A stretch of 64,000 nucleotides of DNA from Escherichia phage vB_EcoM-Ro157lw. Both the position numbers and the translations under genes were made by a program. Shown here piece after piece: positions 5,479 through 19,439 of this stretch (position 1 is its first letter; each line of letters begins with the position of its first letter). The notes beneath the pieces are model-generated. The model saw nothing but the letters and a program-made list of their open reading frames with translations, did not search any database and was not told the origin of the DNA. The stretch lies in sequence record MH051335.1; one strand, given 5' to 3'.

Positions 5479-7833
5479 TTATTTTGCTGATTTTAGCGCG
5501 GCTATCTCTGCCTTGAGTTCATCTATCTGATCCATCAATGCAAGAATAGCCTCGTGGTGCAGCGCCGCAGCCACTCCGTAAGTGTCGACTGATTTGATAT
5601 CCTCGACAATTGTGCCATCCTTTAGTTCCGTGTTTGAATATTTCAAAGTCTTTACTGCATCAGGGAATACGCCTTCTACGTCTTGGGCGATAAAGCCAAT
5701 TCCATTCGGTTTTTCTGATTTATCAAGACGCTCCCAAGTCACACCCTTGATCAACCTCATCTTCCCTAACGGGTCTGAAATCCTTTGAATGTTCGTCTTG
5801 ACCCTCTCATCAGACGTGCTAACCCAGTTCCCAGCACTGGCAGTCCCATCAGGGAAAAATCTGAAGTCAGCGGCTTGCCCTGCCCCGTTGTTGATTGATA
5901 TTTGCGCACGCTCTAAGGCTGTGCTGCCGCCGCGAACGCCGCCAAATGTATAGCTGCCATCATACCAATCTCCTGAAAAATATGACACATATCCAGGCGT
6001 TGATTGATTGAAGTTGACCATCCTCATGGCATTTCTTTCATGCGCTGAAACGCCTACTGAGTTCAACGGTTGCGCAACAAGGTCTTTTGGTCTGAGATAT
6101 GCATTAACAGTCAATGCGCCATCACTTCTCTGAGTCTCAATTTGCGTTATTGAGTCCGGGAAAGATAGTGCTCCATATTGGTTGAATGACCACTCTTGCA
6201 CACCATTTGAAACTATTGCTCCACATTCAGACGATGATCCATCAATCTTGCCGTATGCCTGCAAGAATGCTTGATACGCGATGTTCGTGCCAATCTTATA
6301 TTCAGATTTTACACTACCGCCTCTGACAAGCGTTCCGGTTGCAGGTTTTACTGCGTCGCCGTTGATAACGCTCCAAGACGTATTCGCGGCAACAAATCCA
6401 CCCGATGCACGAATCACCCAAACGCCTTCAAAGGCATTAGGTCGAACTTCATTTGCACCATCACGCCCATAAGCGCCATTGGAAAGGCTTGCATCAATGT
6501 TCAATCCGTTCCTATAGTTAAGGTTTGTTGCACCTCCGTCTGGACCAACTCTTAGGCCTGGAATAACAACAGGTGCTGGAACTATTGCCCCTGTCCCTGT
6601 GTTACCTGCCGTGTTATATTGCGTTGATATTGAAGTACCAATTGAACCGGTTATGTTTGGCGCTGCGTTTTGTCTTACGCGACCGTCAGAAGAAGACACT
6701 CCACCATCGCCTCGTCCAAATAAGCCTGGGATGGACCCCGCTTGGACACCGTTTCTGTCTGGTACGCGGAATGTTGTTGTTCCGTTGCCCAAAGAATATT
6801 TGCCGCGTTTTGCTGGGTCGGCAAGCCAGTCAGCATCGGCAATAGGGGAAAGCATTTGCGCATAAGCCCAAAGTTCAGGCCAGTCTGCACGATTTAACAA
6901 TTGTCCGTCAGAAACGACTTCATAAGGTTGAATATAAGCACGGCTGTCCCGTAAGTGGAAATCACCGACGCCATAGTTCATAACACCGTTCATGCTTGGG
7001 CCAACAGTTCCGGTGTTTACTAAGTTCTCAACCCAACGTTTAGTCGCGGCGTCATAATCATTTACAGGGTCGCCAGCAAGCGGAGTTGGGCCTATCGGTC
7101 GGATATTCAGCCATGCCTGCGCGTTATCACCTGATCCTGTGCCTCCCATCGAAGTAGGAACAATATTTTGATCAGCGACTTGCCCGAATCCAAAAGCGGA
7201 CTTCATCCCTTGGATGGTAGTTTGTCCTGTGCCGCCGTTGGCTACTGGGATGACAGATTCGCTGTTGTATATTTGCTCCCATCGACTCCAAACTCCATTT
7301 ACCGCGTTGTAAGTCCTTTGGTATGTAACATTGTTGTAGTATGTTGAGTATCTTTGTACACAACTTTCTATTGATGGTCCAGTTTTTAGAACTTCAAGGA
7401 CTCCTGCTTGTAAAACTGGGTAATTAAGAACAGGCTGAGCATCTGCATTGAAGTCTTGGAAATAATTTCCAAACCAAGAGCCTGTCAGAAAGTTGAGATT
7501 TATCCCAGAAGGAAGTTTGCCATAATTTCTTACAACCCCTGTTAAGGTCGCAGCAGTGTTACGAATGGAAAGCAGATCTCCAGTCGCCCATGCACGCGCT
7601 GCAGTCCCTTCCTGTGCACGCTGCACGGTCAGGACGTTCCCAACCACGGCTGTTACTGTGACGATTTCGAATTGAAGGCCTGTTGCAGCGTCAACGATTG
7701 TCGCCACTACGCTCTCGTTTGCGCCCAAGGTCGGAAAGTCCGACCCTGAGCGAATTGTGATTGTGGTGTCTGAAGTCGTCGTTGGTTGAGCCAGCGCGAC
7801 CTCAAAGTTGTTTTTGAATATTAGCCTTGGCAT
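5479..7833 (-). CDS. tail fiber protein with tail-collar domain and C-terminal intramolecular chaperone (peptidase S74-type)
   Basis: Collar-like motif LLNRADWPELWAYAQ...FRVPDRNG; C-terminal SDERVKTNI...GFIAQDVE plus terminal coiled coil typical of self-cleaving fiber chaperones; GAGGA SD. Confidence 0.75.
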   Translation of the reverse strand: MPRLIFKNNFEVALAQPTTTSDTTITIRSGSDFPTLGANESVVATIVDAATGLQFEIVTVTAVVGNVLTVQRAQEGTAARAWATGDLLSIRNTAATLTGVVRNYGKLPSGINLNFLTGSWFGNYFQDFNADAQPVLNYPVLQAGVLEVLKTGPSIESCVQRYSTYYNNVTYQRTYNAVNGVWSRWEQIYNSESVIPVANGGTGQTTIQGMKSAFGFGQVADQNIVPTSMGGTGSGDNAQAWLNIRPIGPTPLAGDPVNDYDAATKRWVENLVNTGTVGPSMNGVMNYGVGDFHLRDSRAYIQPYEVVSDGQLLNRADWPELWAYAQMLSPIADADWLADPAKRGKYSLGNGTTTFRVPDRNGVQAGSIPGLFGRGDGGVSSSDGRVRQNAAPNITGSIGTSISTQYNTAGNTGTGAIVPAPVVIPGLRVGPDGGATNLNYRNGLNIDASLSNGAYGRDGANEVRPNAFEGVWVIRASGGFVAANTSWSVINGDAVKPATGTLVRGGSVKSEYKIGTNIAYQAFLQAYGKIDGSSSECGAIVSNGVQEWSFNQYGALSFPDSITQIETQRSDGALTVNAYLRPKDLVAQPLNSVGVSAHERNAMRMVNFNQSTPGYVSYFSGDWYDGSYTFGGVRGGSTALERAQISINNGAGQAADFRFFPDGTASAGNWVSTSDERVKTNIQRISDPLGKMRLIKGVTWERLDKSEKPNGIGFIAQDVEGVFPDAVKTLKYSNTELKDGTIVEDIKSVDTYGVAAALHHEAILALMDQIDELKAEIAALKSAK

Positions 7834-7871
7834 TTTACGGTCCTCGTTTTGTCGACAACCGTATTATAACC

Positions 7872-8213
7872 TTAATTTCTTTTGAGAGGAATATGACGGT
7901 TGCTGTCATTATTTGGTTTAATAATGAGCATAAAAACGATTAGAAAGATGATGGCTGATATACTTAATTCAATCAGCGCCGCTTGAGATATGGATTGATC
8001 TTCATGATACTGCTTTTGCATTTCTGCTTTCTTCTGAGCGCAAACTTCAGGTGATATATAATCGCCTTTTGAGTTGCCATAATAAATCTCGCCATTCTCA
8101 GAAATAAGCCTGCCGCAAATATCCGTTTCAGCTTTTGCGCTTGAAATCATAATAACGGTGCCGATGATAGCGGCGATAGTCCAGATTAGCAGTTGTGATA
8201 AAGTATTGTTCAT
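7872..8213 (-). CDS. membrane protein (N- and C-terminal hydrophobic segments)
   Basis: ORF track; AGAGG SD. Confidence 0.55.
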   Translation of the reverse strand: MNNTLSQLLIWTIAAIIGTVIMISSAKAETDICGRLISENGEIYYGNSKGDYISPEVCAQKKAEMQKQYHEDQSISQAALIELSISAIIFLIVFMLIIKPNNDSNRHIPLKRN

Positions 8214-8408
8214 GATAACCTCTTTAATTCCCTTCCCATATCGGGAAGGGCAAATATTATTTTACGCGAAAGAATAGGCGCGTGCCACACAGCGAGTCCC
8301 AACGGCCCTCACCATCCCATATCGACCCAACACCAGCAGCGATTGGTCCAGCAGAATTGGCGGCATTGGCCCAGGCGAGTCGTTTAAGCTTCCAACTGCA
8401 CCAACGAT

Positions 8409-8642
8409 TCACAGTTCGCCTCCAGACTTCAAAATTAATCCCGCATAGATTATTGCCAGAGCTAAAGGCGCACCGTCGCCAGCCTCTCTATTCTCTTTGA
8501 TTTGAAGAGTATCTTTTAGGAATTGAAGCTGAACGTTGAATTCATTTTCAATTCCAAGCACTCCAGCTAATCCTTTTACAGAATCTGCATATGCCTTGTC
8601 TATCACTTCTTTTGGCACCGTTAAGGTTAATTCATTTGCCAT
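8409..8642 (-). CDS. hypothetical protein (ATG at 8642; track extends to TTG at 8660)
   Basis: ORF track. Confidence 0.5.
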   Translation of the reverse strand: MANELTLTVPKEVIDKAYADSVKGLAGVLGIENEFNVQLQFLKDTLQIKENREAGDGAPLALAIIYAGLILKSGGEL

Positions 8643-8853
8643 TTTCTTTCCACTCCACAAATGTACTGCTACTTGTTTCTCTATTTAGCAGGTATCTGCC
8701 GCGCATTCCACGAAGGCTGAATTCAACCGTCGATGGATTAGATTTTGAAAGCCACATCACTTGACCGTCGAACGGTCCGCCAACGCATGTGTATTTGGCC
8801 TTTGGCTCACTCCTTTTGGGCCTCTTTGCCCGCTCTTTGATTGATAGTCTCAT
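8632..8853 (-). CDS. hypothetical basic protein
   Basis: ORF track; AAGGTGA SD. Confidence 0.5.
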   Translation of the reverse strand: MRLSIKERAKRPKRSEPKAKYTCVGGPFDGQVMWLSKSNPSTVEFSLRGMRGRYLLNRETSSSTFVEWKENGK

Positions 8854-9068
8854 CAGTCTTCACCTTGAGATTCAAGACAAGTAAGAACAAGCCACGTCAT
8901 CGGAAGAATCAAAACCAGAGAAATAAGTGACCAAATGGACCAACACAAGATGACAGACTTGAATGTGTGAACGTCGCCAAACGCAGCAGTGAAACAAAAT
9001 CCCATTACGAAAGCAATCGCTGTGGAGTGATTATCAATGGCTTTGATGGCGCGGTCGATGAGTTTCAT
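8853..9068 (-). CDS. small membrane protein with two predicted TM segments (holin candidate, unproven)
   Basis: ORF track; GGAGGT SD; hydrophobic stretches. Confidence 0.5.
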   Translation of the reverse strand: MKLIDRAIKAIDNHSTAIAFVMGFCFTAAFGDVHTFKSVILCWSIWSLISLVLILPMTWLVLTCLESQGED

Positions 9069-9149
9069 ATTACCTCCGGTTTTGAGTTAATATGATTATA
9101 ATGCAGAATTTCAGAAAGGCAAACTTTTTGTGAATTTAAATTAAAAAAA

Positions 9150-9170
9150 TGGCCAGAAATAATCTGGCCA
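9150..9170 (-). terminator. minus-strand-oriented hairpin (7-bp stem, A7 before and A5 after on plus = U-tract on minus)
   Basis: TGGCCAG/CTGGCCA inverted repeat in the divergent region. Confidence 0.4.
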
Positions 9171-9246
9171 AAAAGATCACCCTTTATCCACTACTAAGCT
9201 GGAATCATAATTTTACTTGATATAGCTGTCTCAAGCAAACTATAAT

Positions 9247-10707
9247 ATGAATAAAATATTAACACATAATTGGAAAGTCATGTACCAGTTGAATCCTGCT
9301 TTAAGAGAAGTCTGGAAGACGAAAGCGCGATACAAAGTCATATACGGCGGTCGTGCATCTTCCAAATCGCACGATGCCGCTGGTTTTGCTATTTATTTGG
9401 CGGCAAACTTCAAATTAAAATTCCTTTGCGTTCGACAATTCCAGAACAAGATTTCTGAATCAGTATATACGCTATTAAAAGATAAAATAGAGATTTCTGA
9501 TTTTAAAGACGAGTTCAACTTATTAAAGAACTCTATTGAACACAAAAGAACAAAATCTGAATTTTTATTTTACGGTATCGCACGCAACGTTGACGAAATC
9601 AAATCAACAGAAGGTGTTGATGTTCTTTGGCTTGAAGAAGCGCATGCACTGACTGAAGAGCAATGGGACATCATTGAGCCGACAATTCGTAAGGAAGGGT
9701 CCGAAATATGGATCATATTTAACCCTGATGAAGAGGCTGATTTTGTCTACCAGAACTTTGTCATGCGACCGCCGAAGAATGCCATCGTTAAGAAGATTAA
9801 CTGGCAGGACAACCCATTCTTGTCGCAAACAATGCTGGATGTTATAGCTGGCATGTATGAGCGCGACCCGAAAAAGGCAGAACACGTTTATGGCGGAGTA
9901 CCGAAGACTGGCGGCGACAAGTCGGTCATCAACCGTGCATTTGTCAAGGCCGCGCTAAACCTCCACAAACACCCTACGCTGGGGTGGAGCTTGTCAGGGT
10001 CTAACCGTATAGGCTTCGACGTGGCGGACGACGGCGACGACTTAAACGCCACAGCGTTTGTCACAGGCAACGTATTACGTGGCATCAAGACATGGGAAGG
10101 TCTGGAAGATGAATTGCTTAAGTCCGCAAGCGGAGTTTGGAAAGACGCATTGACATTCGGCGCATCAATCACCTATGACGCCATCGGTGTTGGTGCATTT
10201 GCTGGTTCAAAATTTGATGAGCTTAATGAGTATGCAATCCATGAAAATCCAACATTCCCAAGAATCGAATTTAATGCGTTCAACGCGCAAGGTGCTGTTG
10301 ATGATCCTGATGACGTTTTCCTTGAGTTACCACACGTTGAAATACTCAATAAAGACCATTTCGCAAACATAAAAGCGCAAAAATGGACTGAGATTGCCGA
10401 ACGATTCAGAAAGACATATGAGTATGCGACAGGGCAAGCCGTATATCCGACCGATGAGTTGATTTCCATCGACACAGACGGCATCCCAGAACTTGGTATT
10501 CCCGCTTGGTCTGCCGAAGAAATTGAGACGTTTCTTTTTGAGATGTCAGCACCGCGCAAAGACACGTCTGTTCTTGGTAAGTTCAAAGTTGAATCGAAAA
10601 AAGATATGGCAAAGCGTGGAGTCAAATCGCCTAACAAAGCGGACGCAGCAATCATGGCATTGATGAAACCAATTGTTGCAGCATCCGGCTTCTTCTCTAA
10701 CCTTTAA
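9247..10707 (+). CDS. terL: terminase large subunit
   Basis: Deviant Walker A GGRASSKS, Walker B VDVLWLEEA; position ahead of portal. Confidence 0.8.
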   Translation: MNKILTHNWKVMYQLNPALREVWKTKARYKVIYGGRASSKSHDAAGFAIYLAANFKLKFLCVRQFQNKISESVYTLLKDKIEISDFKDEFNLLKNSIEHKRTKSEFLFYGIARNVDEIKSTEGVDVLWLEEAHALTEEQWDIIEPTIRKEGSEIWIIFNPDEEADFVYQNFVMRPPKNAIVKKINWQDNPFLSQTMLDVIAGMYERDPKKAEHVYGGVPKTGGDKSVINRAFVKAALNLHKHPTLGWSLSGSNRIGFDVADDGDDLNATAFVTGNVLRGIKTWEGLEDELLKSASGVWKDALTFGASITYDAIGVGAFAGSKFDELNEYAIHENPTFPRIEFNAFNAQGAVDDPDDVFLELPHVEILNKDHFANIKAQKWTEIAERFRKTYEYATGQAVYPTDELISIDTDGIPELGIPAWSAEEIETFLFEMSAPRKDTSVLGKFKVESKKDMAKRGVKSPNKADAAIMALMKPIVAASGFFSNL

Positions 10708-11487: not shown

Positions 11488-11525
11488 ATAGATTGATTCC
11501 CTTTCACTGTCAGGTGGCGTTAACA

Positions 11526-13901
11526 ATGAAAATTCTTGGCATAAAACTCTGGGAGAAGACGCAACCAGAAGCCGAACCAGCGGAGATGCCGCCAGGCGAC
11601 CCATTGGCACCGTTTGAACGCCTTGAAAGGCGCGGCAGCGGTCAACGCTGGGAAAAGACTGAAAGCAATCGACCGACCTTTAAAACGGTTGATGACTTCC
11701 CTTTATATGAGCCTGATATTAATGGCGATGGTGTTGCAATCATAAAAGGTCGTTCAGTCGATTCCGCAACAGTATCCAAAAAGGTTATGGATAATGCCTT
11801 AAAGAACATCAGTTCAGAAGGGCAAGTCAACCCATACACAGTACCTATTCAACTTCAAAACTGGTATTTGTCACAGTCATTCATCGGCTATCAAGCTTGC
11901 GCAATTATAGCGCAGCACTGGCTGGTGAACAAGGCTTGTTCCATGGTAGGCCGCGATGCGGTCCGTAAAGGCTGGGAAGTTAAATCCAGTTCTGAGTCAG
12001 AATTGTCAGTACAAGCCAGCGAACGCCTAAAGCAAATTGATAAAGAATTTAATATCAAAGAGCACTTAGTTGAAGCCGAACGATTCAAAAATATTTTTGG
12101 TATCCGCGTCATCATATTTGATGTGCGTAGCGATGACCCAGAATATTACAGCAAGCCTTTTAACATTGATGGTGTGACAAAGGGGTCTTATAAGGGAATC
12201 ATTCAGGTTGACCCTTATTGGATGATGCCATTTTTGACGTCTGAAAACACCGCCGACCCTGCATCACAGCACTTCTATGATCCAGAATACTGGGTGATCA
12301 GTGGACAACGTTATCATCGAAGTCACCTCATCATCTTGCGCAATGATGAGCCAGCTGATATTCTCAAGCCAACTTATATTTACGGCGGCATTCCTCTGAC
12401 TCAGCAGATTTATGAACGCATCTATGCCGCTGAACGTACCGCTAACGAAGCGCCATTGCTGGCGATGTCCAAGCGTACAACCACGCTGCGGACCGACGTT
12501 GACAAGGCTATTGCCAATGAGCGGTCTTTTGCAGAACGTCTGATGATGTGGATCAAGTACCGCGACAACTATGCAGTCAAAGTGCTTGGCCAAAAAGAAG
12601 AGATGGACCAGTTTGACATCAACTTGTCAGACTTCGACAGCATCATCATGAACCAGTACCAGCTTGTGGCCGCAATCGCAAAAGTTCCGTCGACCAAACT
12701 GCTTGGGACTTCGCCAAAAGGCTTTAACGCCACTGGTGAATTCGAGATGGTCAGCTATCACGAAGAGTTGGAAACGTGCCAGCAGCATGACCTGACAAAA
12801 ATTCTCGACCGCCATTACAAAATCCTTCTCAAATCAGAAGGGGTGGATGTCGATGTTAAGGTTGCATGGGAACCAGTTGGCTCACTTACTGCTACTCAAC
12901 TTGCAGAAATCAATGATAAGCGAGCCAACACTGGCAAAACTCTTATTGATGCTGGCGTCATTTCTCCTGATGAAGAGCGCGACCGCATCAAAGACGACAA
13001 AAACAGCGGCTACAACCGTCTGCCGGAAGACGCAGCAGAAGAAACCCCAGGGATGTCTCCAGAGAATATGGCATTGCTTGGCAAGTCTGCTGGTGAAGTC
13101 CTGCAAGGTAAGGCCGATATTGAACAGGCGAAAGCTGATGTCGTTAAGATGGGCGGCCAGTTCTATAGCGAAACAGGTATTATGCCAGAGGGTGCCGCGC
13201 GTGGTGAGTTGGCGGAAAACCCTGACAAGGCGCCTGTCGAAATCAACATGGACGATACCGATGATGAATCAAGCCATCAGGTTGATGTCCTAACGCAGTT
13301 GAAAGAAGGGCTGGAGGGTATTGCGGATTACTACCTGAAAGAAGGTCAGGATGTGGATTTTGACCCTCAAAAAGATTCACGGTCGGTGCAACCGTCTACC
13401 CTTCCAAGCGTTAAAGGACACGTCGTCAACTTACGCCACAACGTGGGTAAAATGGACGCAGCATCATTACCTAAGATGAAGTTGCACGGAATGATTCTTG
13501 GCATTGAGAATCCGCGAAACAGCATTCGTAGAGGAAACAGCCTTGACGGTGAATGGGCCGTGAAGATGCCGCACCACTACGGATTCATCAAGGGCACCAA
13601 GGGCGCAGACGGTGATGAAGTCGACTGCTTTGTGGGTCCAAATCTGAAGTCGCCGAAAGTCTTTATCGTGAACCAAAACGATAACTACTCTGGCGAGTTT
13701 GATGAACACAAGTGTATGCTTGGATTCGATTCAGCAGAAGAAGCGAAAGAAGCTTATCAAGCATCATTTGGTAACGGTTGGAACGGATTCGACTCAATCC
13801 ACGAATTAGATGTGAACTCATTCAAGGAGTGGTTGAAGGGTGATTGCTCTCAAGCATACGGAGCACTCAATAATCCTACTAATTCACCGAAGCAAGGTTG
13901 A
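11526..13901 (+). CDS. portal protein with ~250-aa C-terminal extension
   Basis: Position between terminase and MuF-like gene; portal-like N-terminal two-thirds; ATG at 11526 with AGGTGG SD (track extends to TTG 11493). Confidence 0.65.
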   Translation: MKILGIKLWEKTQPEAEPAEMPPGDPLAPFERLERRGSGQRWEKTESNRPTFKTVDDFPLYEPDINGDGVAIIKGRSVDSATVSKKVMDNALKNISSEGQVNPYTVPIQLQNWYLSQSFIGYQACAIIAQHWLVNKACSMVGRDAVRKGWEVKSSSESELSVQASERLKQIDKEFNIKEHLVEAERFKNIFGIRVIIFDVRSDDPEYYSKPFNIDGVTKGSYKGIIQVDPYWMMPFLTSENTADPASQHFYDPEYWVISGQRYHRSHLIILRNDEPADILKPTYIYGGIPLTQQIYERIYAAERTANEAPLLAMSKRTTTLRTDVDKAIANERSFAERLMMWIKYRDNYAVKVLGQKEEMDQFDINLSDFDSIIMNQYQLVAAIAKVPSTKLLGTSPKGFNATGEFEMVSYHEELETCQQHDLTKILDRHYKILLKSEGVDVDVKVAWEPVGSLTATQLAEINDKRANTGKTLIDAGVISPDEERDRIKDDKNSGYNRLPEDAAEETPGMSPENMALLGKSAGEVLQGKADIEQAKADVVKMGGQFYSETGIMPEGAARGELAENPDKAPVEINMDDTDDESSHQVDVLTQLKEGLEGIADYYLKEGQDVDFDPQKDSRSVQPSTLPSVKGHVVNLRHNVGKMDAASLPKMKLHGMILGIENPRNSIRRGNSLDGEWAVKMPHHYGFIKGTKGADGDEVDCFVGPNLKSPKVFIVNQNDNYSGEFDEHKCMLGFDSAEEAKEAYQASFGNGWNGFDSIHELDVNSFKEWLKGDCSQAYGALNNPTNSPKQG
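13476..13898 (+). other. inorganic-pyrophosphatase-like segment within the portal C-terminal extension
   Basis: KMPHHYGFIKGTKGADGDEVDCFV matches the family-I pyrophosphatase signature D-[SGDN]-D-[PE]-[LIVMF]-D-[LIVMGAC] and the preceding YPxNYGxI..T pattern (recalled, not searched). Confidence 0.4.
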
Positions 13902-13902
13902 T

Positions 13903-14754
13903 ATGGCTTTTAAAGCTTCGAAAAAACGTGAACGCCGCTCACCCGATAGAATCGGGCGCGGCAGTCCGATAATCCCATCAAACGCTATTGCGATGGCCTA
14001 CCGTCGTGAGATGAAAGGTCTTTGCTATGCGATGATTGATGACTATCAGGCAGGAATTTCAGAGTGGCTTGAAAAGAAGCAGGTGCAGAAGTTCTTTGCG
14101 CAAGACTCTGCTGATTCAACATTCCAAACTCTTATGAAACGTCTGCAGCTGAAATGGGCAAAGGCGTTTGCTCGTGTTGGGTCGAAGATTGCCGCTGATT
14201 TTATCAAGTCGGTTGAAAAGGGTGCTACTTCTGCTACATTCGCCAGCCTTAAGTCCGCAGGCATAGAAGCGCCAAAGGCCACATATAACAAATTCGTTGA
14301 GAACACTCTTAGAACAAGCGAGACGTTTAACACGACTCTAGTGACTAAGGTCGGCGAGGATATTCACAACAGAGTGTACGAAGCAGTCATGCTTTCGCTG
14401 ACTTCGCCCGACCCAGCCCAGCAAGGCACGTCAGGCATTCAGGCGGCGCTGCGAAACGTAAAACACTTCTCTGCAAAGAGAGTCGACTTAATCGCTAAAG
14501 ACCAGACAAGCAAATTGTATTGCGTTCTAAGCGATGAAAGGATGCGCCAGAATGGAGTTGAAGAATTTGAATGGGCGCACTCAGGAGCAGGAAAGGAGCC
14601 GCGAATCTCTCATGAACACGTCGACGGAATGAGATTTAAACTTGATGACAAGCGCCTATGGGAAGTTGGCGGAGAATTGAAGTTCAAAAAGGGTGACATC
14701 GGTCCTCCTGGATGGGCAATACACTGCAAGTGCAGGAAAATACCAATCATTTGA
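13903..14754 (+). CDS. head morphogenesis protein (MuF / SPP1 gp7-like)
   Basis: Position directly after portal; ATG at 13903. Confidence 0.55.
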   Translation: MAFKASKKRERRSPDRIGRGSPIIPSNAIAMAYRREMKGLCYAMIDDYQAGISEWLEKKQVQKFFAQDSADSTFQTLMKRLQLKWAKAFARVGSKIAADFIKSVEKGATSATFASLKSAGIEAPKATYNKFVENTLRTSETFNTTLVTKVGEDIHNRVYEAVMLSLTSPDPAQQGTSGIQAALRNVKHFSAKRVDLIAKDQTSKLYCVLSDERMRQNGVEEFEWAHSGAGKEPRISHEHVDGMRFKLDDKRLWEVGGELKFKKGDIGPPGWAIHCKCRKIPII

Positions 14755-14761
14755 GGTCATT

Positions 14762-15682
14762 ATGACGATACCAATCAGCACGTTTCCTATATCTGGACAA
14801 ACGCCAGTATTACCTGCTGTATATGCGAACGGTTTGGCGATTGTTTCAGAATTTACATCCGATAAAAATTTGATTGTTCCATTGAGTCCGCCATTGGCAT
14901 CTGGATACAATTCAGTCGGCCAATTCTTTATGATCGGTAATGATGGCGATTCTACCAGCAAGCCGAATCTGACACTTTCAGTTCCCAAAATGGACATAAC
15001 AGACGTGCAGACTGGTTTAACTGCATCTACAATCACCATCGCTTTTGGAGAAGCGGTGATTATAGGCATGGAGTCTGGAGGGTCCAAGAATGCTGTCGCC
15101 GTTAAGGTAGTCAAATCCAGCGGCAACCAATACACGTTACCAGCGGCAACGGCTTCTGTTCTCGGCGGCGTCAAGATAGGAAGTGGCATAAGTGTTGCAG
15201 GTGACGGTACAATTAGTGTTACTCAATACTCGTTACCGATTGCATCAGCATCAACCTTGGGTGGCGTAAAAGTAGGAACGACACTATCAATTGATGGTTC
15301 TGGCGTCCTTAATGCTGCTGCAAGCACTGTGCAGAACGCAAGCAACAGCGTAAGCAATCCTCCGACAACTCTGGTGAATCTGGCAACCTTAAACCTGCCT
15401 GCAGGGAAATGGCTTGTGACAGCAAGTCAGTTGACTGTCGCGACAGAAGGAGTTCAAGCGAATACCGGAATTACAGTAAAATTGTCAACAAGTAATTCAG
15501 ATATTACGGATGATGCATTCACGATGTCTGCTGGCATTCGGGCTGCAGGTCGTTTCGGCGGCAATATTCCAACAAAGATAATTACTCTTGCCGCGCCTGG
15601 CAACGTGTATCTAAACTATCAATGCACAGACGCATTGACATCTACCGTTTACGGACAGATCACCGCAATTAAGTTGAACTAA
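14762..15682 (+). CDS. fiber-like protein with tandem ~25-aa repeats
   Basis: Repeats ATASVLGGVKIGSGISVAGDGTISV / ASASTLGGVKVGTTLSIDGSGVL; ATG at 14762 with GAGGT SD. Confidence 0.55.
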   Translation: MTIPISTFPISGQTPVLPAVYANGLAIVSEFTSDKNLIVPLSPPLASGYNSVGQFFMIGNDGDSTSKPNLTLSVPKMDITDVQTGLTASTITIAFGEAVIIGMESGGSKNAVAVKVVKSSGNQYTLPAATASVLGGVKIGSGISVAGDGTISVTQYSLPIASASTLGGVKVGTTLSIDGSGVLNAAASTVQNASNSVSNPPTTLVNLATLNLPAGKWLVTASQLTVATEGVQANTGITVKLSTSNSDITDDAFTMSAGIRAAGRFGGNIPTKIITLAAPGNVYLNYQCTDALTSTVYGQITAIKLN

Positions 15683-15692
15683 AGAGGAAGTT

Positions 15693-15830
15693 ATGCAAAA
15701 GATTATTCAGTCACGTTACGTTAAAGTGCGAAATATTAATTGCAACTCTTTGCTTTCTTGGAAATGGGCTGTTTACGACTCGATGCTGATTGGCGTTTTA
15801 GTTGCTGGAGTGCTTTTTAATATTCACTGA
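15693..15830 (+). CDS. small hypothetical membrane peptide (45 aa); below ORF-track size cutoff
   Basis: ATG with AAGAGGA SD; hydrophobic C-terminus MLIGVLVAGVLF. Confidence 0.4.
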   Translation: MQKIIQSRYVKVRNINCNSLLSWKWAVYDSMLIGVLVAGVLFNIH

Positions 15831-15865
15831 ATCGCCTGGCAATGGATTGCCGCAGGATTTTACGC

Positions 15866-16136
15866 GTATAATGACGTATCATCCGTATCAAGTAAGTAGT
15901 TGTTTTCAAAAGAATCTTACGGATGATACGGATGATACGCGTTGCCGCGATAATTTATAGGAATTCAAATAAATTAATTTAAAATTATATATCTAATTTA
16001 ATTTTATTTTTTTATAAACTCTTATATATGAAAAGTATCCGTATCATCCGTATCATCCGTAGCACACCAGTGATAGCGCGGCTTATACACCGATACGGAT
16101 AAAAATACGCCTCATTTTATCCGTATCATCCGTATC
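15866..16136. repeat. iteron-like region: GTATCATCCG at 15876, 16041, 16050, 16123; inverted tandem CGGATGATAC at 15920 and 15929; ~90-bp AT-rich tract at 15951-16040
   Basis: Direct reading; coordinates anchored to ORF-track boundaries. Confidence 0.85.
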
Positions 16137-16194
16137 ACACTAATTAAGGCGCGGCTATATCGGTTGTTATACATATTCAAACCATAATTATTGT

Positions 16195-16223
16195 TTGCCT
16201 AAGTTTTTTTCATTAGATATAAT
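16195..16223 (+). promoter_or_regulatory. sigma70-like promoter TTGCCT-N17-TATAAT upstream of the scaffold/capsid genes
   Basis: Hexamers read directly, just after the iteron region. Confidence 0.4.
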
Positions 16224-16246
16224 ACACAATACTTATTTGAGGGTGG

Positions 16247-17665
16247 ATGCGAATGCAAACGGCACGCGAAATTGACAAAAATGGATTCTTGACGATTGTG
16301 GGTTGTCCCATTTCGTCATTTGGCATTTTTGATTATTCTGCAGGTCAGGTTGGACTTGATGGTGATCCGAATCGCATCGTAAAAGTTTATCGCCCAGAGT
16401 CAGCGGTGAAAGACCCCGAAGCGATAGATTCATTCAAAAATATCCCTTTCATCGACAATCACGAAATGCTTTCTGGATTCGAAGGTGATGAGGATAACAC
16501 AGCACCCGAAGAGTATGGCGTTGATGGCGTTCTGACTGGCAATGTTTATTATGACAAGCCATGGATGCGCGGCGACCTTAAAGTTTTTAGCCGTCGTCTG
16601 AAGAAGGCCATCGATTCTGGAAAGGTTGACTTGTCTTTGGGCTATGACTGTGAATTCATCATACAGTCTGGAGAGTTTGACGGGCAGCCGTATGAAGTGG
16701 TACAGACAACTCTTCGCGGCAACCACATTGCTCTCGTGGACGTTGGTCGAGTACCAGGTGCACGGGTGCTGGATGGTCGTTGCTTTGACCATCTTTGTTT
16801 GACGACTGTAACACCATCCAACGAGGATTTAGACATGCCAAAACCGTTAAAAGGTAAAGCGCGTGATAATGCTGTTGAACAGCTGAAATCACTGATCCCT
16901 GCGCTCGAACAATTTCTGAATGAAGAGAGCACCGAAGCTGCTCATCAGGACGAAGTTGAAGTGAAAGCAGAAGAGAAGGATTCAACCGAAGAACGTGAAG
17001 AAGTGATGGTTGATCCAGAAGTCAAAGCAGAAGCTGAAGAGACTCCAGAAGGTGAAGAGAAGTTTGAAGTTGAAACTGAATCTCACGCTGGCGGCGAGCT
17101 TCCGCAACTGATCAGCCAAATCGAAGCACTTATTGCAAAACTGAAAGGTGGCGCGGTAGGTGATGAAGAAGAAGTTGAAGCCGAAGTCAAAGACGAAGAA
17201 GTTGAAGTCAAGGCTGAAGATGTATCACCTTGCGACAAAGCTGAAGATGTGGTTAGCGGCCTGCAAAACAGCAACGTAAAGGGGGCTTCGGTCGAAAAAG
17301 ATGACAAACCGACAAAAGCGGCGAAAGCGTCGCCAGGTCCAGCAAAAGGGGAACACTCAATGGCATCTGATTCAGCAGTTGCTGCTTTCTACGCTGATTC
17401 TGCTCGTAAGAATAGCCTCTACCAGCGCCTGTCTAAAGTTGTTGGTGCCTTTGATCATGCAACTATGGACTCCAAGTCCGTAGCGAAATATGGCGCTAAA
17501 AAGTTAGGCTTGAAGTGCGTTGATGGTGCTGAGTTTGACGTGGTGGATAATTATCTGCGCGGCGTTGAACACGGTCAAAAACAGCGTGTAGTCGCAAAAC
17601 AAAAGGCCGCTGCGGATTCTGCAGCAACTGACGAAGCATTTGAAGCTTGGTTGAAAGGGGAATAA
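16247..17665 (+). CDS. capsid scaffolding protein (N-terminal domain possibly prohead-protease-like; acidic central region)
   Basis: Position before capsid gene; E-rich low-complexity centre. Confidence 0.5.
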   Translation: MRMQTAREIDKNGFLTIVGCPISSFGIFDYSAGQVGLDGDPNRIVKVYRPESAVKDPEAIDSFKNIPFIDNHEMLSGFEGDEDNTAPEEYGVDGVLTGNVYYDKPWMRGDLKVFSRRLKKAIDSGKVDLSLGYDCEFIIQSGEFDGQPYEVVQTTLRGNHIALVDVGRVPGARVLDGRCFDHLCLTTVTPSNEDLDMPKPLKGKARDNAVEQLKSLIPALEQFLNEESTEAAHQDEVEVKAEEKDSTEEREEVMVDPEVKAEAEETPEGEEKFEVETESHAGGELPQLISQIEALIAKLKGGAVGDEEEVEAEVKDEEVEVKAEDVSPCDKAEDVVSGLQNSNVKGASVEKDDKPTKAAKASPGPAKGEHSMASDSAVAAFYADSARKNSLYQRLSKVVGAFDHATMDSKSVAKYGAKKLGLKCVDGAEFDVVDNYLRGVEHGQKQRVVAKQKAAADSAATDEAFEAWLKGE

Positions 17666-17667
17666 AC

Positions 17668-18285
17668 ATGACTTTCCAAACTAGTGTAGGCCGTCAATAT
17701 ACAACTGGCTTTCCTGGCGACATCGTTCGCGACGGCCCACAGCGTGGGAAGCCAGGCCGAATTGCCAACGCTAACGAAGGCGCAAACGTAAACGCCATCA
17801 GCCGTGTGTTCGGTTTTAAGACTGACGTATCCTTAATGGGTACTGGTCAAACCAAAACTTTGGGCGCGCAGGACTTTGAAGTTGAGCTGGGCGGCACTAA
17901 CTACTACGGCATCCTCGGCAATAGCAAGCGTTACGCGCTGTATGGCAACTCTACTGGTCCTTTGGGTGCCAGCATGGTTCTGCCTCAATATAGCGAAGGC
18001 GAGTTCTATGATATGTGCACGGGCCTCGTAGTTGAAGTATTCAACCCAAGCACCAGTCCGCAGACGCTTAACTATGGCGACCTGCTTGCTTATGTACCTA
18101 AAGGCATTTCCAGCGGTAACAACCCGAACAACTTGCCTATTGGTGCAATTATCGCCTATACTGGCTCATTGCCAACTGGCATGGTTGCCATCCCAGGCGG
18201 TATTGTGATTGACCCGACGACTATTGCCCTTTCCGGCCCAAGCGTCCAGTCTTCCACTTATACCATTGTACAATTGACTCGTTAA
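17668..18285 (+). CDS. hypothetical head protein (decoration candidate)
   Basis: ATG at 17668 with AAAGGGG SD; between scaffold and capsid genes. Confidence 0.5.
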   Translation: MTFQTSVGRQYTTGFPGDIVRDGPQRGKPGRIANANEGANVNAISRVFGFKTDVSLMGTGQTKTLGAQDFEVELGGTNYYGILGNSKRYALYGNSTGPLGASMVLPQYSEGEFYDMCTGLVVEVFNPSTSPQTLNYGDLLAYVPKGISSGNNPNNLPIGAIIAYTGSLPTGMVAIPGGIVIDPTTIALSGPSVQSSTYTIVQLTR

Positions 18286-18299
18286 TAGGCAGGTGAATA

Positions 18300-19439
18300 A
18301 TGACTCGCATTAGCCAAACACACTCTCGCCTCCCAGCGAGCAAGGTGCGCCCTTTTGATATGCAATCCGTGACCGACGCGGCTGTTTCCCAGCTTGCGCG
18401 TATCGGTATTGTGTTTGATTCCGCGATTGTGCGTGATCAGATTGAGCACTTAAACCGTGCAGGCGCTTTCCGCGTAGGTGACGCCGCATTTACTGCGCCG
18501 CAGACCACGCCATCAATCCCGACCCCGCTGCAGTTCCTGCAACAGTGGCTGCCTGGCTTCGTCAAAATCATGACCGCTGCCCGTAAAATTGACGAGCTGG
18601 TTGGTATTGACACCGTTGGTCAGTGGGAAGATGCAGAAATCGTTCAGGGCATCGTTGAACCAGCTGGCACCGCAGTTGAATATGGTGATTTCACCTCTAT
18701 TCCTCTGGCAAGCTGGAACGTGAACTTTGAACGCCGTTCCATCGTTCGCGGTGAAATGGGCATGGCAGTCGGCATGCTGGAAGAAGGCCGCGCGTCTGCG
18801 ATGCGTCTGAACTCTGCAGAGACCAAGCGCCAGCAGGCTGCTGTATCTCTGGAAATCATGCGTAACGCAATCGGCTTCTATGGTTGGTATAACGGGAACA
18901 ACCGCACGTTCGGCTTCCTGAATGATCCAAACCTGCCAGCGGCAATGACTTCAAACACCACTTCCGGCTGGGCTACTGCGACCTTCCAACAGGTGACTGC
19001 AGACATCCGTTTGATGGTTCGTCAAATCCGTGTCAACTCTCAGGACCAGATTGATCCAGAGAAGGTTGATATGACTCTGGCGCTGCCGACCAACTCTATT
19101 GATTGGCTGTCAAACACCACCGACTTCGGTATTTCTGTACGTGACTGGATCACCCAGACTTATCCGAAGATGAAGATCAAATCCGCACCGGAACTCAACG
19201 GCGCACTTGGCAGTGACCCGACTTTCCTGAACGTGGCATATCTGTACGCTGATCACATCGATTCCTCAATTGATGGCTCAAGCGATGATGGTTCCGTATT
19301 CAGTCAGCTGGTCCAGACTAAGTTTATGACTCTGGGCGTTGAGAAACGCGCTAAGAGCTACGTTGAAGACTACGCAAACGCAACAGCAGGCGTTCTGCTC
19401 AAGCGTCCTTTCGCAGTCGTCCGTATGACTGGTATCTAA
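18300..19439 (+). CDS. major capsid protein
   Basis: Position, size 379 aa, AGGTGA SD, strong hairpin downstream. Confidence 0.55.

What the first reader, a model, noticed from the sequence alone, without database searches (positions are those of the whole stretch)
14762..15682. Fiber-like repeat protein inside the head module
Tandem ~25-aa repeats (LGGVKxG...DG.G...) typical of fiber shafts occur in a gene between the MuF-like and scaffold genes, suggesting a head fiber or decoration protein rather than a tail component.
Basis: partly seen in the sequence, partly recalled or inferred. Interest (0 to 1): 0.3.

Follow-up and report, generated by a model that had tools for sequence, protein, structure and literature searches.

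The report
Short virion fibre beside MuF gene
This gene of an E. coli Wifcevirus phage encodes a short fibre-like protein that published proteomics already found in purified virions; calling it a head fibre is plausible but unproven, because only a common fibre-shaft motif links it to the phi29 head fibre.

Summary
The window is a Wifcevirus (about 99% identical to E. coli phage vB_EcoM_WFH). The finding is exactly one CDS, 14762-15682 (+), 306 aa, starting 8 nt after the MuF gene. The repeat is real, but there are two copies of a 32-aa unit (aa 124-155 and 156-187), not a run of ~25-aa units. Orthologues carry 3 or about 4 copies.

The unit (YxLPxAxxxxLGGVKxG…DGxIS) is a widespread phage fibre-shaft module. 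phi29 head fibre gp8.5 has one copy, which is the only reason Pfam "Phage_head_fibr" matches. The gp8.5 capsid-binding base and helical shaft are absent.

The protein has three parts: an all-beta N-terminal domain, the two repeats, and a C-terminal domain that tentatively resembles TNF-like lectin knobs. N-domain relatives were found only in PB1/E217-like myoviruses. In 7 of 8 informative phage contexts they sit in this MuF-to-protease/scaffold slot, with different distal parts.

Published mass spectrometry of CsCl-purified vB_Eco4M-7 and ECML-117 detected the orthologues.

Head versus tail attachment is unresolved. Databases already annotate this gene variously as head fiber, tail fiber or tail connector. 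Verdict: a real, ordinary accessory virion fibre of modest interest.

The parts
14753..14756 (+). GAGG ribosome-binding site, 5 nt upstream of the ATG and overlapping the MuF stop codon (TGA, 14752-14754)
   Evidence: Sequence read directly. The gene starts 8 nt after the MuF stop, so it is most likely co-transcribed with the portal and MuF genes.
14762..15682 (+). Complete CDS of the fibre-like protein, 306 aa, about 30.9 kDa. Orthologue of WFH gp023, vB_Eco4M-7 gp38 and ECML-117 gp36.
   Evidence: ORF list. It is 96-99% identical in 28 Wifcevirus records. Locus tags were checked. The orthologues were detected by mass spectrometry in purified virions.
14762..15118 (+). N-terminal all-beta domain (aa 1-119), the presumed virion-anchoring domain. 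It defines a small family found only in PB1/E217-like myoviruses.
   Evidence: The profile search of 1.84 billion representatives gave 15 hits. The AF2 model has pLDDT 81.6 and pTM 0.75. Foldseek's best PDB match is the Pa223 capsid spike (E 4.7e-4), followed by the KP1 baseplate, T4 gp9/gp10 and CBA120 TSP4. This is the only such domain in the window.
15131..15226 (+). Shaft repeat copy 1 (aa 124-155): YTLPAATASVLGGVKIGSGISVAGDGTISVTQ
   Evidence: It matches phi29 gp8.5 residues 232-248 and Pfam PF11133 positions 213-258.
15227..15322 (+). Shaft repeat copy 2 (aa 156-187): YSLPIASASTLGGVKVGTTLSIDGSGVLNAAA
   Evidence: Orthologues P0002 and P0003 carry 3 and about 4 copies.
15323..15679 (+). 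C-terminal beta domain (aa 188-306), the presumed distal knob. It tentatively has a TNF-like/C1q-like jelly-roll fold.
   Evidence: The full-length AF2 model gives pLDDT 50-70 for this part. Foldseek hits to the BC2L-C N-terminal lectin, the PLTL lectin and BclA/BxpB/ExsF appear with the full model but not with the N-domain alone. At sequence level the domain is found only in Wifcevirus-like phages.

Best explanation
The gene encodes a short accessory fibre of the Wifcevirus virion, probably a homotrimer. It has three parts.
- An N-terminal all-beta domain (aa 1-119) anchors it to the particle.
- Two 32-aa beta-structured shaft repeats (aa 124-187) form a very short stalk.
- A C-terminal jelly-roll knob (aa 188-306), tentatively similar to TNF-like lectins, is the distal end.

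It is made late, together with portal and MuF. It belongs to a family of fibres that PB1/E217-like myoviruses encode in the slot between MuF and the protease/scaffold gene. Members share the N-terminal anchor and have different distal parts.

The most likely site is the capsid surface, that is a head fibre or spike comparable in size and layout to Pa223 gp52. There it would act as a dispensable, conserved adhesin that holds the particle near the cell surface, not as the host-range-determining receptor-binding protein.

Shown: gene, repeat, domain layout, family and synteny, presence in virion preparations, purifying selection.
Inferred: trimer, capsid site, adhesin role.
My confidence is about 0.85 that it is a virion fibre and about 0.5 that it is head-mounted. 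The figure given below is for the whole statement.
For: - Virion presence: vB_Eco4M-7 gp38 (30.9 kDa, 8 peptides, 72.9% coverage, third-highest score of 33 proteins) and ECML-117 gp36 (3 peptides, 15.7% coverage) were found in CsCl-purified particles. Orthology was confirmed by locus tags.
- Fibre nature: over 1000 proteins share the repeat unit. In the 132 sequences fetched from the searches, 122 carry 1-8 copies at a modal spacing of 33 aa, with many different terminal domains. Copy number varies among orthologues (2, 3, about 4), as expected for a shaft.
- Anchor plus variable tip: the N-domain profile finds relatives of 182-647 aa whose C-terminal parts differ.
- Context: relatives lie directly after MuF in L003, L008/L009, L010 (two tandem paralogues), L012, L027, L028 and L030.
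- Not a tail-fibre relative within this phage: no other ORF of the window has the N-domain or the repeat.
- Accessory: PB1 and MyoSmar have only two tiny ORFs in the slot, and the E217 capsid carries only the cement trimer.
- Conserved, not diversifying: across 9 Wifcevirus genes, 148 codon columns vary only synonymously and 28 vary in amino acid. Against a distant relative the fibre is 51% identical, like the cement protein (53%) and MuF (60%). The T-shaped tail-fibre receptor-binding domains of the genus, by contrast, vary widely (PMC11990801).
- Best PDB fold match of the N-domain is a capsid spike (9ny6_C). Pa223 gp52 is a 295-aa trimer with an anchor, a beta stalk and a TNF-fold knob at capsid 3-folds.
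Against: - No direct localisation exists. TEM descriptions of Wifceviruses mention no head fibres.
- Similarity to the phi29 head fibre is confined to one 17-residue motif. The gp8.5 capsid-binding base is not detectable.
- The next-best fold matches of the N-domain are baseplate or tail-fibre attachment proteins: the KP1 baseplate, T4 gp9/gp10 and the CBA120 TSP4 N-terminus. In BFVD it resembles many generic fibre domains.
- The Pa223 match may be to that protein's TNF-fold knob and not to its capsid anchor; the aligned region is not reported.
- Gene position is weak evidence. The Wifcevirus T-shaped tail fibre is also encoded away from the tail module, and one N-domain relative sits upstream of the terminase gene.
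- The mass spectrometry samples also contained non-structural proteins (helicase, glyoxalase), and the protein scores do not track copy number.
- The C-domain fold rests on a model with pLDDT 50-70 built from 5 sequences.
- Three distant family members carry Sec-type signal peptides, which fits poorly with a purely virion-bound family.
Confidence: 0.5

Rival explanations
1. It is a tail-, baseplate- or neck-attached accessory short fibre or whisker that merely happens to be encoded in the head gene cluster.
For: - The repeat unit is most often found in proteins with tail-fibre or baseplate domains: PF07880 gp9/gp10, PF13884, PF12571, the phiRSL1 long tail fibre and cyanophage tail fibres.
- Fold matches of the N-domain include T4 gp9, T4 gp10, the CBA120 TSP4 N-terminus and KP1 baseplate chains.
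- BASEL, F13, AV128 and EC150 annotate the gene as tail fiber, tail protein or tail connector.
- In this genus the major T-shaped tail fibre gene is also outside the tail module.
Against: - Those fold matches are weak (E 0.003-0.1) and involve a generic jelly-roll or beta-sandwich.
- The N-domain is not shared with any tail protein of the window.
- The gene keeps its place next to MuF in seven divergent PB1-like phages.
- The E217/Pa193-type tail is otherwise conserved in relatives that lack the gene.
- The study of Wifcevirus host recognition describes two tail fibres and does not include this protein.
- The database annotations appear to be automated; the only matches this protein gives to family libraries fall on the shared motif region.
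Confidence: 0.33
2. It is not a stable virion component. It could be a late protein that co-purifies, for example an assembly factor, or a cell-surface or exported lectin-like protein as the signal peptides of distant relatives suggest.
For: - The mass spectrometry samples also contained clearly non-structural phage proteins: DNA helicase, a glyoxalase-family protein and lytic enzymes.
- Three distant N-domain relatives have Sec-type signal peptides with good ribosome-binding sites.
- Coverage in ECML-117 was low: 3 peptides, 15.7%.
Against: - The window protein and its close orthologues have no hydrophobic N-terminus.
- Coverage was 72.9% with the third-highest score in vB_Eco4M-7, and the protein was detected in two independent phages.
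- The domain layout of anchor, shaft repeats and knob is that of a structural fibre.
- Strong purifying selection and co-inheritance with the head genes.
Confidence: 0.1
3. It is a true member of the phi29 gp8.5 head-fibre family, as the Pfam and RefSeq label implies, binding the capsid the same way.
For: Pfam PF11133 scores above its gathering threshold (30.7 against 24.6 bits). PDB chains of gp8.5 are the only significant sequence hits (E about 6e-4). WFH and CWP003 records say 'head fiber protein'.
Against: - The match covers only profile positions 213-258 of 277, that is the YSLPAATxxTLGGVK motif.
- A profile of the N-domain against full-length gp8.5 gives probability 0.1%.
- No helices are predicted, whereas gp8.5 is described in the title of Xiang and Rossmann (2011), seen in the reference list, as having a supercoiled helix-turn-helix shaft.
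- Hundreds of unrelated fibre proteins get the same Pfam label through this motif.
Confidence: 0.04

Closest known systems
Bacillus phage phi29 head fibre gp8.5 (Pfam PF11133; PDB 3QC7, 6QVK)
   Same: Both share the YxLPAATxxxLGGVKxG motif (gp8.5 residues 232-248). Both are small virion fibre proteins of about 280-306 aa encoded among head genes.
   Different: gp8.5 has one copy of the motif and this protein has two full 32-aa units. The gp8.5 N-terminal capsid-binding base and helix-turn-helix shaft have no counterpart. This protein is all-beta and has a separate C-terminal domain.
Pseudomonas phage Pa223 capsid spike gp52 (PDB 9NY6)
   Same: It is the best PDB fold match of the N-domain (E 4.7e-4, TMq 0.54). 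Size is similar (295 against 306 aa), and so is the layout: an attachment part, a beta stalk and a jelly-roll (TNF-fold) knob. Its authors propose an accessory adhesin role.
   Different: There is no sequence similarity. Pa223 anchors through a 40-residue N-terminal arm and has a globular triple beta-helix, not LGGVK repeats. It belongs to a podovirus with a T=7 capsid. Which part of gp52 aligned is unknown, and the location of the Wifcevirus protein is not shown.
The widespread 31-36-aa 'LPxAxxxxLGGVK' fibre-shaft repeat proteins of phages (for example the phiRSL1 long tail fibre distal subunit and cyanophage ACG-2014i tail fibre)
   Same: The repeat unit is the same, with 55-62% identity over the two units and more than 1000 database relatives.
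   Different: Those proteins usually have 3-8 or more copies and different N- and C-terminal domains, often tail or baseplate ones. This protein has only two copies and has terminal domains private to PB1-like phages.
TNF-like / C1q-like trimeric knobs (BC2L-C N-terminal lectin 2WQ4, PLTL lectin 9IB7, BclA 3TYJ, BxpB, ExsF)
   Same: The C-terminal domain of the full-length model matches these folds (E 3e-4 to 6e-3, TMt about 0.4-0.59). They are trimeric distal knobs, and several are glycan-binding.
   Different: Sequence identity is only 10-18%. The model confidence for this domain is low (pLDDT 50-70). Ligand-binding residues were not examined, and neither trimerisation nor sugar binding has been shown.

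Membership tests
phi29 gp8.5 head fibre family (Pfam PF11133 Phage_head_fibr) | N-terminal capsid-binding base domain homologous to gp8.5 residues about 1-110 | tested here: not met
   The Pfam match covers only profile positions 213-258 of 277. hhalign of the 13-sequence N-domain profile against gp8.5 gives probability 0.1%. BLASTP finds nothing outside the motif.
phi29 gp8.5 head fibre family (Pfam PF11133 Phage_head_fibr) | Supercoiled helix-turn-helix shaft | tested here: not met
   Both AF2 models contain no helix of 4 or more residues. No sequence match falls in the middle part of gp8.5, upstream of residue 200. The description of the shaft is taken from the title of Xiang and Rossmann (2011), seen in the reference list; the paper itself could not be read.
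phi29 gp8.5 head fibre family (Pfam PF11133 Phage_head_fibr) | C-terminal YSLPAATxxTLGGVKxG motif | tested here: met
   Both repeat units align to gp8.5 residues 232-248. The Pfam score is 30.7 bits against a gathering score of 24.6.
phi29 gp8.5 head fibre family (Pfam PF11133 Phage_head_fibr) | Located on the capsid surface | not testable with these tools
   This needs cryo-EM or labelling. Only presence in purified virions is documented (PMC7048862).
LPxAxxxxLGGVK fibre-shaft repeat proteins | Tandem units of about 31-36 aa carrying the motif | tested here: met
   Two units at 32-aa spacing. A unit HMM built from 300 foreign units gives i-E 7.6e-17 and 2.8e-15. The modal spacing in the family is 33 aa.
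MuF-adjacent fibre family of PB1/E217-like myoviruses (defined here by the N-domain) | Homologous N-terminal domain (Y21, N23, F31, N60, D63, P68 and G96 invariant or nearly so) | tested here: met
   A profile built from the close orthologues alone finds P0069 (E 4.7e-10), P0121 (4.6e-9) and 7 further single-stretch relatives among 1.84 billion representatives. Alignment A4.
MuF-adjacent fibre family of PB1/E217-like myoviruses (defined here by the N-domain) | Encoded between the MuF gene and the Pa193_gp24-type protease/scaffold gene | tested here: met
   The window and L003, L008/L009, L010, L012, L027, L028 and L030. The one exception is L007, where the relative lies upstream of the terminase gene.
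TNF-like / C1q-like trimeric knob | Jelly-roll fold of the C-terminal domain | tested here: inconclusive
   Foldseek hits have probability 1.0 and TMt 0.55-0.59 to BC2L-C-N, but pLDDT for this domain is 50-70. Assignment of the hits to the C-domain is by exclusion. There is no sequence support.
TNF-like / C1q-like trimeric knob | Homotrimer | not testable with these tools
   Only monomer predictions were available.
Tail fibre / baseplate-attached fibre (T4 gp9/gp10-type attachment) | Attachment domain homologous to known baseplate adaptors or to the phage's own tail fibres | tested here: inconclusive
   Weak fold matches to the KP1 baseplate (E 2.7e-3), T4 gp9 (E 0.057), TSP4 (0.086) and gp10 (0.11). 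No Pfam gp9/gp10 hit. No other window ORF has the N-domain.

The most novel reading that the evidence does not exclude
The N-domain defines an undescribed class of fibres encoded in the head gene cluster of PB1/E217-like myoviruses. These fibres would be capsid-mounted adhesins with a conserved anchor and interchangeable distal modules. The Wifcevirus version would carry a lectin-like TNF-fold knob that binds a conserved surface glycan and pre-concentrates virions before the tail fibres engage. The Sec signal peptides on some members would then point to a second, exported use of the same scaffold.
Probability: 0.3. Interest if true: 0.5.

Novelty: new member of a known kind. Interest (0 to 1): 0.3.

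Why it matters
Wifceviruses are candidate biocontrol and detection phages for E. coli O157 and are relatives of the therapeutic Pbunaviruses. Public records label this gene inconsistently as head fiber, tail fiber, tail connector or hypothetical.

Three points are useful for annotation and engineering. The 'head fiber' label rests on a promiscuous shaft motif. The protein is nonetheless a real virion component with a private anchor domain. It is conserved, so it is unlikely to be a host-range determinant.

If it is capsid-mounted and dispensable, its C-terminus would be an attractive display or tagging site. It would also add to the few known capsid fibres that assist adsorption.

Tried and rejected
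- DNA-level tandem repeat: none in the gene. The two units are 55% identical at DNA level.
- More than two repeat copies: rejected.
- Homology of the N-domain to the phi29 gp8.5 base: rejected.
- Sequence-level relatives of either terminal domain among solved structures: none. The best hits were PrgB (E 0.098) and UvrB (E 1.7), both noise.
- A solved structure with several copies of the repeat: none. Only the single gp8.5 copy was found.
- Two word-indexed searches with the C-domain, as alignment A3 and as a single sequence, returned nothing. They missed even the known orthologues, so I treat them as failed searches and not as evidence of absence.
- IMG/VR scans with the C- and N-domain profiles recovered only Wifceviruses. 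The 13-sequence N-domain alignment was too divergent for that tool.
- Using mass spectrometry protein scores as a copy-number proxy to argue for a capsid site: rejected. The low-copy tail fibre scores highest and the major capsid protein scores low.
- Literature on Wifcevirus morphology, the synthetic vB_Eco4M-7 tagging study (gp38 was not among its 20 targets), and the E217, P7-1 and 7-7-1 structure papers gave no localisation.
- The phi29 fibre structure paper is not held.
- The reverse-strand ORF 14656-15189 is disregarded, because the homologues and the mass spectrometry data support the + strand gene.

Full report
**Identity of the window and the gene.** The region is about 99% identical to Escherichia phage vB_EcoM_WFH and 94-99% identical to 27 other Wifcevirus records. 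The finding's coordinates are exactly one CDS, 14762-15682 on the + strand, encoding 306 aa. A GAGG ribosome-binding site overlaps the stop codon of the preceding MuF-like gene.

The neighbours are, in order:
- large terminase, 9247-10707
- a portal fused to an InPase domain, 11493-13901
- MuF, 13900-14754
- this gene
- a 45-aa ORF, 15693-15830
- a 416-bp intergenic gap
- the DUF2213/Pa193_gp24-type protease/scaffold gene, 16247-17665
- an E217 gp24-like cement protein, 17668-18285
- the major capsid protein, 18300-19439

Public records call the orthologue by various names: 'head fiber protein' (WFH RefSeq, CWP003), 'tail fiber protein' (BASEL Bas98-101), 'tail protein' (F13), 'tail connector protein' (AV128, EC150) or hypothetical.

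**The observation.** The repeat exists and is not chance. The best ungapped self-match has offset 32 and score 97, against a maximum of 57 in 500 shuffles (mean 35.8, sd 4.7).

The description needs correcting. There are two copies of a 32-aa unit (aa 124-155 and 156-187; window 15131-15322), with 15 of 32 residues identical. No further copy exists. At the DNA level the units are only 55% identical, and Tandem Repeats Finder sees nothing.

Three more distant full-length orthologues from metagenomes (51-58% identity) have 2, 3 and about 4 units, while their N- and C-terminal domains align throughout. That is how a modular shaft behaves.

**What the repeat is.** The unit YxLPxAxxxxLGGVKxGxxxxxxxDGxIS is a very common phage fibre module. 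More than 1000 database proteins match through it. In the 132 sequences fetched from the searches, 122 carry 1-8 copies, with a modal spacing of 33 aa. Their other domains are diverse and often tail-related: PF07880 gp9/gp10, PF13884, PF12571, the phiRSL1 long tail fibre and cyanophage tail fibres.

phi29 head fibre gp8.5 has one copy, at residues 232-248. This alone produces the Pfam PF11133 hit (profile positions 213-258 of 277; 30.7 bits against a gathering score of 24.6) and the only significant PDB sequence hits, 3QC7 and 6QVK.

The N-terminal base of gp8.5 shows no similarity to this protein (hhalign probability 0.1%). No helical shaft is predicted. The protein is therefore not a member of the gp8.5 family in any sense beyond the shared motif. 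No solved structure contains several copies of the unit.

**Domain anatomy.** The full-length AlphaFold2 model was built from 5 sequences. It is confident for aa 1-119 (pLDDT about 80), poor for the repeats (below 40, as expected for a monomer model of a trimeric shaft) and moderate for aa 188-306 (50-70). Everything is predicted as beta structure.

A model of the N-domain alone, built from 13 sequences, reached pLDDT 81.6 and pTM 0.75. Its PDB fold matches are:
- the Pa223 capsid spike, 9NY6 (E 4.7e-4, TMq 0.54)
- KP1 baseplate chains (E 2.7e-3 and 3.1e-2)
- T4 gp9 (E 0.057)
- the CBA120 TSP4 N-terminus (E 0.086)
- T4 gp10 (E 0.11)

In BFVD it resembles 159 mostly fibre-type phage proteins. 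It is a generic beta-sandwich or jelly-roll of trimeric fibres and does not indicate a virion location.

With the full-length model, Foldseek also found TNF-like lectins (BC2L-C N-terminal domain, PLTL) and C1q/TNF-like knobs (BclA, BxpB, ExsF). These are absent from the N-domain-only hit list, so by exclusion they belong to the C-terminal domain. This assignment is tentative because of the low model confidence.

**A family tied to the MuF slot.** A profile of the N-domain, searched against 1.84 billion representative proteins, found only 15 hits. The full-length single-stretch relatives (182-647 aa) have unrelated C-terminal parts.

Every relative on a long enough contig comes from a 68-74 kb PB1/E217-like myovirus genome. 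These genomes have a portal-InPase fusion, MuF, Pa193_gp24, a cement protein and E217 gp27-32-like genes. In seven phage contexts the relative lies directly after MuF and before the protease/scaffold gene: L003, L008/L009, L010 (with a second tandem paralogue), L012, L027, L028 and L030. In one context (L007) it lies just upstream of the terminase gene.

PB1 and Serratia phage MyoSmar have only two tiny ORFs in the slot, and the E217 capsid carries only the cement trimer. The fibre is therefore an accessory addition to this virion type. Within the window, no other ORF has the N-domain or the repeat, tail fibres included.

**Virion presence.** Necel et al. (Sci Rep 2020, PMC7048862) analysed CsCl-purified vB_Eco4M-7 and ECML-117 by LC-MS/MS.
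- vB_Eco4M-7_38: 30.9 kDa, 8 peptides, 72.9% coverage, score 3353.7, the third highest of 33 proteins.
- PI34_gp36: 30.8 kDa, 3 peptides, 15.7% coverage.

Both were listed as 'unknown protein'. I confirmed from the GenBank records that these locus tags are the orthologues, 96-99% identical.

Two caveats apply. The same samples contained some non-structural proteins. The scores also do not follow copy number: the tail fibre scores highest and the major capsid protein scores low.

**Evolutionary behaviour.** Among nine Wifcevirus genes, 148 codon columns vary only synonymously and 28 vary in amino acid: 6 of 119 in the N-domain, 8 of 68 in the repeats and 14 of 119 in the C-domain.

Against the distant relative L003 the fibre is 51% identical. 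That is similar to the cement protein (53%), the protease/scaffold (58%) and MuF (60%). The C-domain is at least as conserved as the N-domain among the distant orthologues.

This is vertical inheritance under purifying selection. It contrasts with the T-shaped tail fibre of the genus, whose receptor-binding domains 'vary a lot' and are exchanged horizontally (PMC11990801). The protein is thus unlikely to be the host-range determinant.

**Interpretation.** The best reading is a short, probably trimeric, accessory virion fibre with an anchor domain, a two-unit stalk and a jelly-roll knob. A capsid site (head fibre or spike) is the single most likely location. The arguments for it are:
- the strict association with the portal-MuF-scaffold cluster across divergent relatives
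- the gene's presence or absence in phages that otherwise share the same tail
- the lack of any link to the phage's own tail proteins
- conservation similar to the cement protein
- the resemblance in size and layout to the Pa223 capsid spike, whose authors propose an adsorption-assisting role

This is inference, not demonstration. The arguments against are:
- the fold is shared with baseplate adaptors
- the motif is commoner in tail fibres
- Wifceviruses already keep one genuine tail fibre gene outside the tail module
- no micrograph description mentions head fibres

I put about 0.85 on 'virion fibre', about 0.5 on 'head-mounted' and about 0.33 on 'tail, neck or baseplate-mounted'.

**An unexplained point.** Three distant N-domain relatives (P0121, P0123 and P0124, the last with a corrected start) begin with classical Sec-type signal peptides preceded by strong ribosome-binding sites. 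The Wifcevirus protein has none. An export signal on a gene in a myovirus head module is unexpected. It leaves open that part of this family is not virion-bound, or is used in two ways.

**Novelty and score.** The gene is in public records, is already labelled 'head fiber' in some of them, and has been detected in virions. The repeat is a known, widespread fibre motif.

What this analysis adds:
- the corrected repeat description
- the demonstration that the head-fibre label rests on a promiscuous motif
- the definition of the N-domain family and its MuF-adjacent slot
- the evidence for conservation, as opposed to diversification

I class it as a new member of a known kind, a short virion fibre, of modest interest (0.3).

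Noticed in passing
window 15831-16246 (intergenic gap upstream of the protease/scaffold gene): There are multiple copies of ATCCGTATC and its complement GATACGGAT (around 15871-15880, 15917-15940, 16036-16062, 16091-16100 and 16118-16139). They are arranged as opposed sets flanking an ~80-bp very AT-rich core (15950-16030), followed by a sigma-70-like promoter, TTGCCT-17-TATAAT, at 16195-16223. No Rfam family matches. PB1 and MyoSmar have a comparable ~450-550-bp gap at the same place. The pattern looks like iteron-type binding sites for a regulator of the late head operon.
   Followed up: partly
L010 7948-9840 (P0121); L027 8001-9635 (P0123); L028 about 7974-9800 (P0124): Three distant relatives of the N-domain, also encoded right after MuF in PB1-like phages, start with classical Sec-type signal peptides: MLKFVRALFANALLFAATFVVAQ, MKRLYLFFILIAFSVFFSPIHGNVFAQ and MKRFFRLVAMLVIASASTAWAQ. 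Each is preceded by a strong ribosome-binding site. This is odd for a virion protein.
   Followed up: partly
window 11493-13901 (+): The portal protein (Phage_portal_3, aa 133-479) carries a C-terminal inorganic-pyrophosphatase-like domain (PF18823 InPase, aa 660-782, E 3e-46). The fusion is conserved in the metagenomic PB1-like relatives examined and in MyoSmar.
   Followed up: no
window 15693-15830 (+): A 45-aa ORF follows the fibre gene directly, with its own ribosome-binding site. It is annotated in vB_Eco4M-7 as having a transmembrane domain and is conserved in position in all Wifceviruses. PB1 and MyoSmar have ORFs of similar size (46 and 49 aa) at the same place. A terminator-like hairpin lies within its 3' end, at 15792-15814.
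   Followed up: no
L001 1-72 (WFH gp013, record 5685-8009, - strand), upstream of the terminase region: The large T-shaped tail fibre gene of Wifceviruses (the orthologue of vB_Eco4M-7 gp27, shown to be the best tag site) lies outside the tail module, about 1.4 kb upstream of the terminase gene on the opposite strand. In this genus, gene position is therefore a poor guide to where a fibre sits on the virion.
   Followed up: partly
L008 3716-9388: One metagenomic PB1-like phage has three large fibre-like genes in the MuF-to-scaffold slot: 1073 aa with a weak YadA_head hit, 405 aa with the N-domain and several LGGVK-type repeats, and 402 aa. The slot seems to be a hot spot for fibre or adhesin cargo.
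   Followed up: no
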